Source: Escherichia coli
Lineage (GTDB): Bacteria > Pseudomonadota > Gammaproteobacteria > Enterobacterales > Enterobacteriaceae
Reading direction: 5' to 3' (one strand)
Length of the DNA stretch: 64,000 nt
Assembly (NCBI RefSeq): GCF_045037415.1
Contig: NZ_CP173439.1
In this document: positions 3,225 to 23,539 of the stretch, piece after piece
Position numbering within the stretch: position 1 is the first letter of the stretch
Layout: each line of letters begins with the position of its first letter
Program-made: the position numbers and the translations under genes
Notes under the pieces: model-generated
Seen by the model: only the letters and a program-made list of their open reading frames with translations
Told to the model about the DNA's origin: nothing
Databases searched by the model: none

Positions 3225-3535
3225 CTCGCCTCCTCAATACTCAAACAGGGATCGTTTCGCAGAGGATACTACAGTTTTTTAAAATCAGCGACTTGAGAAT
3301 TGTGACGAAGATCTGTGTTGGCGCACAAATCAACGGGGATTACTGTCGTTTAATGTGATTTAAACTGTGAAATAGTATGGTTTTCAGTTATGGAAACGCC
3401 GGGAGCGGGGAAAACTTGCTTTTTCCCGTTTCCGGGGTTGGACAACTGAGCAACGCGAAGGCGTCAGCTACGATGTTCCGGGGACTGCTGATCTGAACCG
3501 CCCCGGGTTTCCTGGAGAGTGTTTTATCTGTGAAC

Positions 3536-4426
3536 TCAGGCTGCCAGATCATCGTTTCCGATGGAAGCATAATAAGCTTTTTCTGCTTCTGCCGGAGGAG
3601 TATGGCCCAGCCTTTCCAGCAATCGTCGATTGTTATACCAGTCCACCCACGTGAGTGTGGCCAGTTCCACTTCTGCACGGTTTTTCCAGCTCTTACGGTG
3701 TATTACCTCCGCTTTGTAAAGACCATTGATGCTCTCCGCCATCGCGTTGTCATACGAGTCGCCTGTACTTCCTGTTGATGCCAGTAATCCGGCTTCCTTA
3801 AGCCGCTGTGTGTAGGCCAGCGATACATACTGAGAACCTTTATCACTGTGATGGACCGTGCCGGACGGTCGACGGGCCCATAACGCCTGCTCCAGTGCAT
3901 CCAGCACGAATGTCGTTTCCATGGACGATGAAACCCGCCACCCCACGATGTATCCGGCAAACACATCAATGATGAACGCCACATAGACGCCCCCCTGCCA
4001 TGTGCTGACGTAAGTAAAATCAGCCACCCACAACTGGTCAGGACGTTCTGCCACGAACTGACGGTTTACGCGGTCGCCTGCGGCAACGGCTTTCCGGCTG
4101 ATGGTCGTACGGACCTTTTTCCCCCGGAGAACACCGGCAAGTCCCATAACCGCCATGAGACGTGCCACAGTGCATCTGGCCACTCTGATACCTTCCCGTA
4201 ACAACTGACGCCAGACTTTACGCACACCGTACACCTGATGATTTTCATCGTATACGCGCTGTATCTCTTTCTTCAGCCAGTCATCGCGCTGCGCACGGGC
4301 ACTGCGTTTATCCGGATGATGTCGCTGTTGCTGACAGTGGTAATACGTTGACGGGGCAATATGCAGTTCGCTGCATAGCGGTCCGACCCCGTACTGCTCA
4401 CGCAGCTTATCCAGCAGTGGCATCAT
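3536..4426 (-). CDS. IS629 OrfB (DDE transposase)
   Basis: 296-aa IS3-family OrfB overlapping orfA, the usual frameshift arrangement. Confidence 0.9.
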
Positions 4427-4749
4427 TTTTTCCAGAGGCGGTCGAACTCCGCCTTCGCAAAATAAGCGGAAGCCTGGCGAAGGATATCGTTACTGCGGCG
4501 CAGTTCACGATTTTCACGTTCCAGCTCTTTCAGACGCTGACGTTCAGCGGTGGTGAGCCCTCCATCACCGCCCCCGGTATCCCGCTCATGCTGGCGAACC
4601 CAGACACGCAGAGTCTCCGGCGTACAGCCAATCTTTGGAGCAATGGAACAAATTGTCGCCCATTGTGAGTCATATTCGCTCTGACTTTCCAGAACCATAC
4701 GGACTGCCCGTTGACGGACTTCGGGGGAAAAACGAGTATTTTTAGTCAT
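4423..4749 (-). CDS. IS629 OrfA
   Basis: 108-aa protein [23 protein letters not shown]…; IS3-family OrfA with HTH and leucine zipper. Confidence 0.9.
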
Positions 4750-4800
4750 CCTGTTTACCTCTTTCTCAGGAAGTTTAGTCTCCAGGATTCCCGGGGTGGT

Positions 4801-5367
4801 TCAATCAGCCCCTGTTGTATTCAGCCATTCTCCGGTCATCTGCAGCAGTTTTCTGGCATCGTGGCTTCTGAGCAACGGAATACCAGCCTGCCTCAGAACC
4901 TCTTCCAGAAGAATATCCCGGCGTCTGCGTTCCGGTCGTAAATGGCTGGCATCATCCAGCTCTACTGCTGCAACAATACTGAACGAACACTGCTCAACGA
5001 TAACCACATCAACATGCCACTGAGACACCATCCTGAATAACTGCCACCACTGGCGTGATCGTGGCCGGATATTCCCGTTCAGCTGGACGATATCCGCGAC
5101 CCGTACCTGCGGACACAGATACCACCGCTTCATATCCACAATTCTGAACAGTCCTTTCATAAAACTGACTTCCCTTTCTGTCAGCAGCGTCTTCTGACGT
5201 TGCCAGTATTCACCGCCGGACAGTATTCGCTCTGCATCACCGGTCCGTATACCTGCCGCATGCAACTGCATCAGCAAAGGAGAATGCTGATTTACACTTC
5301 TGAGGATAATCCGGATAAGTAACGCTGCAATAATCAGAACAATGAAAATAAAAATAATCAGCTTCAT
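4801..5367 (-). CDS. membrane-anchored hypothetical protein (possibly DUF2726-like), 3' end cut by IS629
   Basis: 188-aa ORF with N-terminal hydrophobic helix; its stop codon (4801-4803) is supplied by the IS629 terminal repeat, so the native C-terminus is missing. Domain assignment is from memory and unverified. Confidence 0.45.
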   Translation of the reverse strand: MKLIIFIFIVLIIAALLIRIILRSVNQHSPLLMQLHAAGIRTGDAERILSGGEYWQRQKTLLTEREVSFMKGLFRIVDMKRWYLCPQVRVADIVQLNGNIRPRSRQWWQLFRMVSQWHVDVVIVEQCSFSIVAAVELDDASHLRPERRRRDILLEEVLRQAGIPLLRSHDARKLLQMTGEWLNTTGAD

Positions 5368-5461
5368 TGTTTATCTGTAAGCGTAAACTGACCGCCGTAT
5401 GTAGCCATCAGACGAGAATTGGTAACTTAGACGCCCATCTGATATAGACGGACATCTAAGT

Positions 5462-20709: not shown

Positions 20710-21765
20710 TTCTGATCTTCCCGGACACCACGCATCCAGTCACGGATGGTAAAAGACTCACCGTTATGCTCAATCCCCTGCAGGTAACGGATGGCTTTCA
20801 CGTAGTTGGTCAGCACAGCACGGATGGAAATAGCCGTTTTCTCAATTTTCTCTTCCACCAGGTTGGCTGCCGGTGAATTACGCAGGAAGGTACGCAGTTT
20901 TTCAATTTTGATGGAAAGCAGTGTGTCCACCAGTTTGCTGTAGCTGCGGTTGGGGTCATTACGCATCAGGTACGCCGCTTCCGCAAAAATGGTACGTCCT
21001 GAACCCTGCCAGAACGGGTCCTCTTTTGTGCCCATAGGGATCAGCGTGTTCGCGGTATTATCAAAATCCGGCTGTGTCAGGCACTCCTTCCACAAATCCC
21101 ATGCGGCACAGCGGGCATCCAGCGGATTCAGGATTTTATCGATGGAGGGATCATAGTAACTTTTAACAAATTCCCCTGAACGGTCATAAATCACCACCAT
21201 ATCACCGCGCTGACGGGCGTAGTTGGCCAGACGACGGATAACCTCCGACTTACCGGCCCCGACCGTGCCGTGCAGACAGAAGTTCTGGATTTCGGAATCC
21301 CGGATAATCGGCAGGTCGCCAATCCGGATATCGGAGTCCTTGCCGTCTTTTTTCAGCATCCGGGCCACTTCTTTCGGGTTATCCGTCAGCTGACGCCCGC
21401 CGGTCACCTCATTTTCACTCTGCTGTTTCCCCTGATGCCCCAGAATCCAGGAGACAACAAAGAAGGTGATCAGGCAAATAACCAGGGCCACGACAGACGC
21501 CAGAACGAATGCAGACCATAGCTGCTCTCCGCACCAGATCATATATTTATCATGCAGTACCTGGGCAGCGTTCATCCGGAAGATTTTGCCGTAATACTGG
21601 ATCTCATAGACCGGCTGGGATTTTATTAAATCCCGCATGCCTTCCAGCGTGGTACACCACCAGTAAATACAGCCGTTGATAAACGTCTGCCAGCTTATTT
21701 TTACCCATAAGACCAGACCAATGAGGATCCAGAAAAAAATAAACAGGCAGTAAAGCATGATATTG
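20710..21765 (-). pseudogene. traD: traD, 5' fragment (N-terminal transmembrane/ATPase part)
   Basis: Translation [18 protein letters not shown]…GVREDQK matches F TraD residues about 28-375 including Walker A GTVGAGKS. The first ~27 codons are displaced by the IS66-family terminus at 21766. Confidence 0.85.
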
Positions 21766-22132
21766 GTAAGCGTAAAGCCAATGCCGTCTGTAACACCTGC
21801 TCCTTGCAGACTAAATTAGAGCTCCTTCTAAATTAGACGGAGTTCTATTGATGGATAAACCTACAGACTGGCGCTCCGGAACCCGCCGGATATTTTCTAA
21901 TGAATTTAAACTTCATATGGTTGAACTGGCTTCGAAACCAAATGCCAATGTTGCACAACTGGCCCGGGAACATGGCGTTGATAACAACCTGATTTTTAAA
22001 TGGCTACGCCTCTGGCAAAGAGAAGGACGTATTTCTCGTAGAATGCCTCCAACTATTGTAGGCCCTACAGTATCACAATCTTTTCCGGCCTCTCCGACTC
22101 TGGTTCCAGTGGAACTTATCGACACCCCGCGC
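21766..22132 (+). mobile_element. IS66-family remnant (left end and truncated orf1)
   Basis: Left end GTAAGCGTAAAGCC… resembles the left end at 5377; orf1-like ORF (21848-22135) is cut after 95 codons by IS629. Confidence 0.7.
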
Positions 22133-22186
22133 TGAACCGCCCCGGGAATCCTGGAGACTAAACTTCCTGAGAAAGAGGTAAACAGG

Positions 22187-22513
22187 ATGACTAAAAATAC
22201 TCGTTTTTCCCCTGAAGTCCGTCAACGGGCAGTCCGTATGGTTCTGGAAAGTCAGGGCGAATATGACTCACAATGGGCGACAATTTGTTCCATTGCTCCA
22301 AAGATTGGCTGTACGCCGGAGACTCTGCGTGTCTGGGTTCGCCAGCATGAGCGGGATACCGGGGGCGGTGATGGAGGGCTCACCACCGCTGAACGTCAGC
22401 GTCTGAAAGAGCTGGAGCGTGAAAATCGTGAACTGCGCCGCAGTAACGATATCCTTCGCCAGGCTTCCGCTTATTTTGCGAAGGCGGAGTTCGACCGCCT
22501 CTGGAAAAAATGA
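22187..22513 (+). CDS. IS629 OrfA
   Basis: 108-aa ORF, one substitution relative to the copy at 4423-4749. Confidence 0.9.
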
Positions 22514-23401
22514 TGCCACTGCTGGATAAGCTGCGTGAGCAGTACGGGGTCGGACCGCTATGCAGCGAACTGCATATTGCCCCGTCAACGTATTACCACT
22601 GTCAGCAACAGCGACATCATCCGGATAAACGCAGTGCCCGTGCGCAGCGCGATGACTGGCTGAAGAAAGAGATACAGCGCGTATACGATGAAAATCACAA
22701 GGTATACGGTGTGCGTAAAGTCTGGCGTCAGTTGTTACGGGAAGGTATCAGAGTGGCCAGATGCACTGTGGCACGTCTCATGGCGGTTATGGGACTTGCC
22801 GGTGTTCTCCGGGGTAAAAAGGTCCGTACGACCATCAGCCGGAAAGCCGTTGCCGCAGGCGACCGCGTAAACCGTCAGTTCGTGGCAGAACGACCTGACC
22901 AGCTGTGGGTGGCTGATTTTACTTACGTCAGCACATGGCAGGGCTTCGTCTATGTGGCGTTCATCATTGATGTGTTTGCCGGATACATTGTGGGGTGGCG
23001 GGTTCTCATCGTCCATGGAGACGACATTCGTGCTGGATGCACTGGAGCAGGCGTTATGGGCCCGTCGACCGTCCGGCACGGTCCATCACAGTGATAAAGG
23101 TTCTCAGTATGTATCGCTGGCCTACACACAGCGGCTTAAGGAAGCCGGATTACTGGCATCAACAGGAAGTACAGGCGACTCGTATGACAACGCGATGGCG
23201 GAGAGCATCAATGGTCTTTACAAAGCGGAGGTAATACACCGTAAGAGCTGGAAAAACCGTGCAGAAGTGGAACTGGCCACACTCACGTGGGTGGACTGGT
23301 ATAACAATCGACGATTGCTGGAAAGGCTGGGCCATACTCCTCCGGCAGAAGCAGAAAAAGCTTATTATGCTTCCATCGGAAACGATGATCTGGCAGCCTG
23401 A
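22510..23401 (+). pseudogene. IS629 orfB, frameshifted
   Basis: Split into two overlapping ORFs (22510-23094 and 22952-23401); diverges from the intact copy after …[15 protein letters not shown]. Confidence 0.8.
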
Positions 23402-23539
23402 GTTCACAGATAAAATACTCTCCAGGAAACCCGGGGCGGTTCAGTCTGGGGTATTGAAAAAACTCGAAGCTCGACTAATAATGATGCGAAAAATTCGGAA
23501 AAAAAAGAATAGTCTGGATGTATTTAAATTAAAATGAAA

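What the first reader, a model, noticed from the sequence alone, without database searches (positions are those of the whole stretch)
3494..23443. Inverted IS629 pair flanking the tra remnant and RepFIIA-proximal genes
The two IS629 copies are in opposite orientation about 17 kb apart; one has a frameshifted orfB. Homologous recombination between them would invert the intervening segment (DUF-like gene to traD), a plausible source of structural isomers.
Basis: inference. Interest (0 to 1): 0.25.

Follow-up and report, generated by a model that had tools for sequence, protein, structure and literature searches.

The report
Inverted IS629 pair on F-plasmid
Two copies of the insertion sequence IS629 sit in opposite orientation around a 17-kb remnant of the transfer region of an F-type plasmid. 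This is an ordinary arrangement that could flip the segment by recombination, as has happened at one of these same copies in sister plasmids, but no flip of this particular pair has been seen.

Summary
IS629-type elements lie at 3494-4803 (minus strand, 1310 nt, intact) and 22133-23443 (plus strand, 1311 nt, orfB frameshifted by one extra T at 23003). They are 98.7% identical and 17,329 nt apart.

The left copy is a simple insertion in a DUF2726 gene with an intact 3-bp duplication (ATC). The same insertion is present in at least 23 public contigs. The right copy has no duplication, and its joints are shared with another plasmid lineage.

The window is a mosaic of those two lineages, switching within traD. 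The pair was therefore most likely assembled by recombination between plasmids, not by transposition in place and not as a composite transposon.

The sequenced molecule is in the parental (un-inverted) orientation. No public record holds both copies, so inversion of this pair is unobserved.

The mechanism has a direct precedent. LR890264 and CP077244 differ by a 27.6-kb inversion between the right-site copy and another inverted IS629, with reciprocally swapped flanks. Copies at the left site also show gene-conversion tracts.

Verdict: a real but ordinary feature.

The parts
3494..4803 (-). Left IS629-type element, 1310 nt. orfA is at 4423-4749 and the intact orfB at 3536-4426. The ALIL frameshift pseudoknot is at 4352-4468. 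The IRR end is at 3494 and the IRL end at 4803.
3491..3493 (.). Target-site duplication ATC of the left copy. The second copy of the duplication is at 4804-4806.
   Evidence: The same flanks occur in 7 independent contigs.
4804..5367 (-). 5' part of the DUF2726 gene, 188 codons, with the stop codon supplied by the IS end TGA. The 3' remnant is at about 3464-3493. Removing the IS and one ATC restores a 196-codon ORF.
5377..7908 (+). Complete IS66-family element (ISEc43-like) with tnpA, tnpB and a 537-aa transposase. Its 8-bp duplication GTTTATCT is at 5369-5376 and 7909-7916. It is absent from all relatives that share the left IS629.
8200..11575 (-). Leading-end genes of the F backbone: thermonuclease-like gene (8200-8736), finO (9247-9807), uilS lactonase (9910-10770) and traX (10829-11575).
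11595..16865 (-). traI, encoding an intact 1756-aa relaxase/helicase.
16865..21765 (-). traD remnant. It lacks its first ~26 codons and is split by an IS66-family element at 18011-20709, whose 8-bp duplication TTCTGATC is at 18003-18010 and 20710-20717.
21766..22132 (+). Stub of a third IS66-family element, 367 nt, running from its terminal GTAAGCG. It replaces everything upstream of traD and abuts the IRL end of the right IS629.
22133..23443 (+). Right IS629-type element, 1311 nt. orfA is at 22187-22513 and the ALIL pseudoknot at 22468-22584. orfB is frameshifted by an extra T at 23003. There is no target duplication (flanks ...CGC and GTC...).
23444..26821 (-). Outer right flank: a three-gene tyrosine-recombinase cluster. 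Its joint to the IS (GGTTCA|GTCTGGGG) is conserved across the plasmid family.
50057..50061 (.). Deletion joint with TGAAC microhomology. Relatives carry 3.67 kb here that includes the IS629 copy which recombined with the right-site copy in CP077244. That former partner is missing from the window.

Best explanation
These are two independently acquired copies of an IS629-type IS3-family element that ended up in inverted orientation on one mosaic F-type plasmid. The left copy is an old simple insertion into a DUF2726 gene upstream of copB and repA in a ColV-type RepFIIA backbone. The right copy belongs to a different plasmid lineage, where it joins an IS66 stub next to a 5'-truncated traD to a tyrosine-recombinase trio. 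The two were most likely united by homologous recombination between two F-like plasmids within traD (inferred). As sequenced, the segment is in the parental orientation. The pair is a competent substrate for homologous recombination inside the IS, which would invert 4804-22132. Such an inversion would produce hybrid IS copies and disrupt no additional gene, and the RepFIIA replicon lies outside the segment. That such exchanges happen is shown for the right-site copy with a different partner, and for left-site copies through gene conversion. It is only inferred for this pair.
For: Both copies are 95.8% identical over the full 1310 nt to the IS629 annotated in Sakai pO157, with OrfA 105/108 and OrfB 290/296 residues identical. 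The left copy is a simple insertion: it has an ATC duplication and healing it restores a 196-codon DUF2726 ORF. The exact truncated 188-aa product occurs in at least 23 contigs, and the identical junctions ACAGGGGCTGAT|IS|GATCAGCAGTCC occur in all 7 contigs that span the IS, each followed by copB and repA. The right copy is identical, apart from the extra T, to the copies at the same site in CP069460, CP077244 and LR890264, and none of these has a duplication. The mosaic origin rests on mismatch counts. Window 8-17 kb shows 0 mismatches per kb against the left-copy lineage (L024, L016) in most bins, but 5-104 against the right-copy lineage. From 17 kb onward the window is about 100% identical to the right-copy lineage. 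CP089258 has an intact 726-aa traD and so lacks the right joint. The parental orientation is supported by colinearity with CP069460, LR890264 and JBRNHK010000003, which lack the left copy. The precedent for inversion is clear. LR890264 has stub|IS|trio together with Abi-GATC|IS|GATC-DUF2971. CP077244 has stub|IS|GATC-DUF2971 and Abi-GATC|IS|trio, with the 27.6 kb in between inverted. Gene-conversion tracts occur in left-site copies of L017, L018, L020 and L022. Uninterrupted identity between the two window copies reaches 395, 280 and 160 bp.
Against: No sequence with the L x R inverted arrangement was found. Every spanning contig at the left site shows IS then copB-repA, and at the right site stub, IS, then trio or DUF2971. 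Those relatives carry only one of the two copies, however, so the test is uninformative. The 1.3% divergence between the copies should lower exchange frequency (general knowledge of mismatch-repair effects). The lineage switch in traD lies in sequence shared by both lineages, so a chimeric assembly of two co-resident plasmids cannot be excluded from sequence alone. The origin of the right copy's missing duplication is unresolved: a candidate empty site was not found.
Confidence: 0.85

Rival explanations
1. The two IS copies and the 17 kb between them form a composite transposon that moved as a unit into this plasmid.
For: The arrangement of two inverted IS copies bracketing a segment resembles Tn5 or Tn10.
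Against: The outer flanks do not share a duplication: ATC at 3491-3493 versus GTC at 23444-23446. The left copy has its own duplication across its two ends. Each copy occurs alone at exactly the same site in other plasmids. The unit as a whole is found nowhere else. The outer ends are both IRR ends.
Confidence: 0.02
2. The window is itself the inverted isomer, meaning an L x R exchange has already happened.
For: The right copy lacks a target duplication.
Against: An L x R exchange would also split the left copy's duplication, but ATC|IS|ATC is intact and healing it restores the ORF. The right copy's duplication-less joints are inherited from relatives that have no left copy. Gene order and orientation match those relatives.
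Confidence: 0.03
3. The pairing is an assembly artefact. Two co-resident F-like plasmids, one carrying each IS copy, were joined in silico through their shared traI-traD sequence, and the frameshift is a polishing error.
For: The lineage switch falls within sequence that is 100% shared. Isolates carrying plasmids of both backbone types exist: LR890264 and LR890265 come from one isolate. The only private change in each IS copy falls at the same IS position, which could reflect reads cross-mapping between the copies.
Against: Both IS copies and all four junctions are individually corroborated by independent assemblies. The window carries two private IS66-family insertions with clean 8-bp duplications, one of them inside the switch region, which argues for a real, evolved molecule. 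The other 16 positions where the copies differ show no mixing.
Confidence: 0.07
4. The rearrangements at these copies are made by the transposase (intramolecular transposition) and not by host homologous recombination.
For: The left copy encodes an apparently intact transposase with its frameshift signal. In CP077244 the GATC is split between two inverted copies, which is also the pattern expected from replicative intramolecular transposition.
Against: IS3-family elements move by copy-out-paste-in through a circle (established knowledge for IS911, IS2 and IS3), which does not invert flanking DNA. LR890264 has the GATC|IS|GATC simple insertion at the same site. Whichever order is assumed, linking the two isomers needs at least one reciprocal exchange between pre-existing copies. 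Conversion tracts are a hallmark of homologous recombination.
Confidence: 0.05

Closest known systems
IS629 / IS1203 (IS3 family) of EHEC O157:H7 and Shigella
   Same: Both are 1310 nt with the same terminal repeats (TGAACCGCCCCGGG...), 108-aa OrfA and 296-aa OrfB, the ALIL frameshift pseudoknot and 3-4 bp target duplications. Identity to the copy annotated IS629 in Sakai pO157 is 95.8% at nucleotide level.
   Different: Both window copies are variants that sit only just above the 95% line relative to the O157 copy. They were not compared with the ISfinder type sequence. The right copy has a frameshifted orfB and no duplication.
Inversions by homologous recombination between inverted IS copies, as described for IS1, IS5, IS26 and IS629 in E. 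coli chromosomes and resistance plasmids (from general knowledge)
   Same: The inverted repeats are over 1 kb long, and an exchange inside the IS would swap flanks and invert the intervening DNA. Exactly this is seen between LR890264 and CP077244 at the right-site copy.
   Different: For the pair in the window, only one orientation is known.
Composite transposons with inverted IS arms (Tn5, Tn10)
   Same: Two inverted IS copies bracket a long segment.
   Different: There is no shared outer duplication, each arm has its own history, and the unit is not found elsewhere.
Programmed invertible segments (Hin/Gin-type switches, IncI shufflons)
   Same: These would also give two structural isomers of a plasmid.
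   Different: Those systems use a dedicated site-specific recombinase acting on short sites. Here the boundaries are whole IS copies. Nothing links the neighbouring tyrosine-recombinase trio to them, and no regulatory consequence is evident.

Membership tests
IS629 (IS3 family) | An element of about 1.31 kb bounded by imperfect terminal inverted repeats starting TGAACCGCCCCGGG | tested here: met
   The copies are 1310 and 1311 nt, and their terminal repeats were aligned.
IS629 (IS3 family) | orfA and orfB overlap, with a programmed -1 frameshift signal | tested here: met
   orfA is 108 aa in both copies. An A-run is present at IS position 373. The ALIL pseudoknot (RF01497) scores 120 bits in both copies.
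IS629 (IS3 family) | An intact DDE-type IS3 transposase (OrfB) | tested here: met
   This holds for the left copy: 296 aa, NF033516 E = 1.8e-93. It does not hold for the right copy, which is frameshifted at 23003.
IS629 (IS3 family) | A 3-4 bp target-site duplication | tested here: met
   The left copy has ATC on both sides. The right copy has none, and this state is inherited from relatives.
IS629 (IS3 family) | At least 95% nucleotide identity to a reference IS629 | tested here: met
   Identity is 95.8% over the full length to the element annotated IS629 in Sakai pO157.
Composite transposon | One target duplication shared by the two outer ends | tested here: not met
   The outer flanks are ATC and GTC.
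Composite transposon | The whole unit is found at other locations | tested here: not met
   No record covers at least 80% of 2000-25000 in PLSDB or the complete E. coli genomes.
IS-bounded invertible segment (structural isomers by homologous recombination) | Inverted repeats with long uninterrupted identity | tested here: met
   Identity is 98.7%, with identical tracts of 395, 280 and 160 bp.
IS-bounded invertible segment (structural isomers by homologous recombination) | Both orientations of this segment are observed | tested here: inconclusive
   Only the parental orientation was seen, but no public record carries both copies.
IS-bounded invertible segment (structural isomers by homologous recombination) | Reciprocal exchange of IS flanks between isomers | tested here: met
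   This is met for the right-site copy with another partner in LR890264 versus CP077244. It is not met for the pair in the window.

The most novel reading that the evidence does not exclude
The two copies are actively interacting inside this plasmid. Each copy's single private change falls at the same IS position: C>T in the left copy and +T in the right copy, the latter being the frameshift. On this reading the changes are a repair scar of an L x R heteroduplex, which would imply ongoing flip-flop and a mixed population of isomers in the source culture.
Probability: 0.12. Interest if true: 0.3.

Novelty: already known. Interest (0 to 1): 0.15.

Why it matters
The main consequences are practical.

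- **Assembly and typing:** inverted IS629 copies are places where long-read assemblies and plasmid comparisons of this F-type family can legitimately differ. Two public plasmids already differ by a 27.6-kb flip at one of these copies. Structural differences here should therefore not be read as distant relatedness.
- **Biology:** an inversion would not change gene content, the replicon, or any obvious expression signal, so the biological impact is expected to be small.

Tried and rejected
1. Whole-region searches (2000-25000) in PLSDB and the complete E. coli genomes found no record holding the arrangement.

2. Junction probes of 200 nt for the left copy found no exact junction in either collection. 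From this I first concluded that the left insertion was private to this plasmid. That conclusion was wrong. An exact-protein look-up of the truncated 188-aa DUF2726 product found the same insertion in at least 23 contigs of other collections.

3. I looked for the L x R inverted isomer using the IS66-stub product, which would be followed by the IS and then copB-repA. Only trio or contig-end contexts were seen.

4. I looked for sister plasmids using the TraD N-terminal fragment created by the IS66 insertion. It is not on record.

5. I checked AP022812, the best-covering record. It is an EAEC pAA-type plasmid with intact DUF2726 and traD, so it is not comparable.

6. I tested whether CP053232 preserves the original simple insertion of the right copy (GTC|IS|GTC). 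Its IRR joint lacks GTCT, the assembly is noisy, and no plasmid has the healed empty site. The hypothesis is not supported.

7. A literature search for IS629-bounded plasmid inversions returned only background on IS629 activity in O157.

8. The 56-nt IS629 end remnant at 32177-32232 is too short to matter as a recombination partner.
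Full report
**Observation.** A repeat scan of the window finds one long inverted repeat, 3493-4803 against 22133-23444, broken only by a single indel. 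Alignment and end inspection set the limits at 3494-4803 (1310 nt) and 22133-23443 (1311 nt). The copies differ by 16 substitutions and 1 indel (98.7% identity) and lie 17,329 nt apart. The left copy lies on the minus strand, with a 108-aa orfA and an intact 296-aa orfB. The right copy lies on the plus strand and its orfB is split in two. Both copies match the IS3-family transposase model and carry the ALIL frameshift pseudoknot at 120 bits. Both are 95.8% identical over their full length to the element annotated IS629 in Sakai pO157, with OrfA 105/108 and OrfB 290/296 residues identical. The label IS629 is acceptable, as a variant of the IS629/IS1203 group.

**What lies between and around.**

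| Window coordinates | Feature |
|---|---|
| 1816-2685 | IncFII repA (outside the left copy) |
| 2964-3224 | copB (outside the left copy) |
| about 3464-3493 and 4804-5367 | DUF2726 gene, split by the left IS629 copy |
| 5377-7908 | Complete ISEc43-like IS66-family element, 8-bp duplication GTTTATCT |
| 8200-8736 | Nuclease gene |
| 9247-9807 | finO |
| 9910-10770 | uilS |
| 10829-11575 | traX |
| 11595-16865 | traI, intact |
| 16865-21765 | traD, lacking its first ~26 codons |
| 18011-20709 | Second IS66-family element, inside traD, duplication TTCTGATC |
| 21766-22132 | 367-nt stub of a third IS66-family element, abutting the right IS629 |
| 23540-26821 | Tyrosine-recombinase trio (beyond the right copy) |

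Beyond the trio come a truncated umuC, parAB and a RepE-type replicon.

**History of the left copy.** It is flanked by ATC on both sides. Removing the IS and one ATC restores a 196-codon DUF2726 ORF that closely matches the intact gene of pSCU-175-3. It is therefore a simple insertion that has not since undergone a net reciprocal exchange. PLSDB and the RefSeq complete genomes hold no record with this junction, which at first suggested a private event. That was wrong. The insertion truncates the gene to a specific 188-aa product, and that exact product occurs in at least 23 contigs from NCBI, ENA and Logan assemblies. In all seven contigs that read through the IS, the junctions are identical (ACAGGGGCTGAT|IS|GATCAGCAGTCC) and the IS is followed by copB and repA, as in the window. 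CP089258 is 99.98% identical to window 1-5377. None of these relatives has the IS66-family element at 5377-7908. CP089258 has an intact 726-aa traD, so it lacks the right-hand joint.

**History of the right copy.** It has no target duplication (...CCCCGCGC|IS|GTCTGGGG...). Apart from one extra T at 23003, it is identical to the copies at the same site in CP069460, CP077244 and LR890264. The joint to the recombinase trio is conserved across that family, and the joint to the IS66 stub is shared with CP069460, LR890264, LR890663, JBRNHK010000003 and L026. The frameshift is thus private to the window, and the missing duplication is inherited.

**How the pair came together.** Mismatch counts per kilobase show the following:

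- Window 8-17 kb belongs to the left-copy lineage. Most bins show 0 mismatches against L024 and L016, while the right-copy lineage shows 5-104.
- From about 17 kb to the end of the window, the sequence is 99.97-100% identical to the right-copy lineage.

The switch lies in traD, in sequence that both lineages share. The simplest reading is homologous recombination between two F-like plasmids, each carrying one IS629 copy. This is an inference. A chimeric assembly cannot be excluded from sequence alone, although the two private IS66-family insertions with clean duplications argue for a real molecule.

**Is the window inverted?** No. The left duplication is intact. Gene order and orientation also match relatives that lack the left copy: repA, finO, traX, traI and traD on the minus strand, the IS on the plus strand and the trio on the minus strand.

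**Can the pair invert?** The copies share identical tracts of 395, 280 and 160 bp. From general knowledge, this is far above the minimal homology needed for RecA-dependent exchange. Two lines of evidence show that these very copies do recombine.

- **Reciprocal exchange at the right site.** LR890264 (90.5 kb) carries the window-type joint stub|IS|trio. It also carries a second, inverted IS629 inserted between an Abi/DUF3800-like gene and a DUF2971 gene, with an intact 4-bp duplication (CTGATC|IS|GATCCC). CP077244 (92.7 kb, 99.97% identical to window 22132-64000) has stub|IS|GATCCC-DUF2971 and Abi-CTGATC|IS|trio, and the 27.6 kb in between is inverted. These two public plasmids are structural isomers produced by reciprocal exchange between inverted IS629 copies, one of which is the right arm of this finding. 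CP091758 carries the inverted-type joint plus a further IS629-associated rearrangement. In the window that former partner is gone: 3.67 kb around it is missing at 50057-50061, with TGAAC microhomology at the joint.
- **Gene conversion at the left site.** Copies at the left site are identical by descent (same site, same duplication), yet they carry contiguous blocks of foreign alleles. The blocks are in L017 and L018 (alignment columns 566-814), L020 (93-165 and 614-909, Sakai-like) and L022 (124-243).

**Limits.** No public sequence carries both copies, so neither orientation other than the window's own can be assessed for this pair.

**Rivals.**

- A composite transposon is excluded by the flanks and by each copy occurring alone elsewhere.
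- The idea that the window is already inverted is excluded by the intact left duplication.
- Transposase-mediated inversion is unlikely for a copy-out-paste-in IS3-family element. It would also not explain the simple insertion in LR890264 or the conversion tracts.

**An oddity.** Each window copy differs from its own lineage at exactly one place, and both places coincide (alignment columns 871-873). The lineage consensus is GTC TCA. The left copy reads GTT TCA, a synonymous change. The right copy reads GTTC TCA, which is the frameshift. The chance of such a coincidence is about 3 in 1310. Either the copies influenced each other during assembly or polishing, or this is a real conversion or repair scar. 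Reads are needed to decide.

**Verdict.** The feature is real and correctly described. It is an ordinary consequence of IS load on F-type plasmids, with low novelty and low-to-modest interest.

Noticed in passing
window 36577-40688: A low-GC (about 0.39) lasso-peptide-type cluster. It has an Asn-synthetase-like cyclase (498 aa), a B2 protease (227 aa) and an ABC exporter (574 aa), in the order C-B-D. A 62-aa ORF sits directly upstream (36577-36765) with a Gly-rich centre ...NGTGGGSIIEG..., which could be the precursor. The cluster is conserved in CP077244, LR890264, CP091758 and JBRNHK010000003.
   Followed up: partly
window 42297-44428 and 60848-62979: Two IS21-like elements (istA and istB), 2132 nt long with 3 mismatches, in direct orientation. 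They bracket about 16.4 kb that includes IS30, IS91 and IS2 transposase genes, a RepFIB-type rep gene and a TonB-dependent haem receptor. Recombination between them would delete the segment, not invert it.
   Followed up: partly
window 50057-50061: A deletion joint with 5-bp TGAAC microhomology. Relatives (LR890264 47016-50688) carry 3.67 kb here, comprising a DUF2971 gene, an IS629 copy and an Abi/DUF3800-like gene.
   Followed up: yes
window 23003 and about 3931-3933: The only private change in each IS629 copy relative to its lineage falls at the same IS position: +T in the right copy (the orfB frameshift) and a synonymous C>T in the left copy. The cause could be assembly cross-talk or a conversion scar. 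This is unresolved.
   Followed up: partly
window 22131-22133: At the IS66-stub|IS629 joint, the window and JBRNHK010000003 read GCGC|TGAACC. CP069460, LR890264, CP077244 and CP091758 read GCGCTG|TGAACC, a 2-bp TG difference.
   Followed up: partly
window about 17000-21765 (traD): The window is a mosaic of two plasmid lineages. Left of about 17 kb it matches ColV-type plasmids such as CP089258, and right of that it matches the CP077244/LR890264 family. The switch lies in sequence shared by both lineages.
   Followed up: yes
L019 8046-11626; L017, L018, L020 and L022 IS copies: In relatives, the IS629 at the left site is itself interrupted by a group II intron (L019), or carries gene-conversion tracts from other IS629 variants (L017, L018, L020, L022).
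   Followed up: partly
window 32177-32232: A 56-nt remnant of an IS629 IRL end next to the resolvase gene. Its flank GTCTGG has the same six bases as the right copy's IRR flank. The same remnant is present in CP077244 and LR890264.
   Followed up: partly
window 8826-9009 and 13940-14016: Rfam matches above gathering score to two plasmid antisense RNAs: AS-pc02 (228 bits) and AS-traI (107.5 bits).
   Followed up: no
window 23540-26821: A three-gene tyrosine-recombinase cluster (446, 316 and 350 aa ORFs) directly beside the right IS629. It is conserved as a block with the IS joint across the plasmid family. Its function and sites are unknown.
   Followed up: no
CP077244 versus LR890264 (L006, L007 versus L005, L008): A second large inversion between these two plasmids (CP077244 86806-92707 plus 1-17492) has IS26 copies at its ends. 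It is independent of the IS629-bounded inversion.
   Followed up: no
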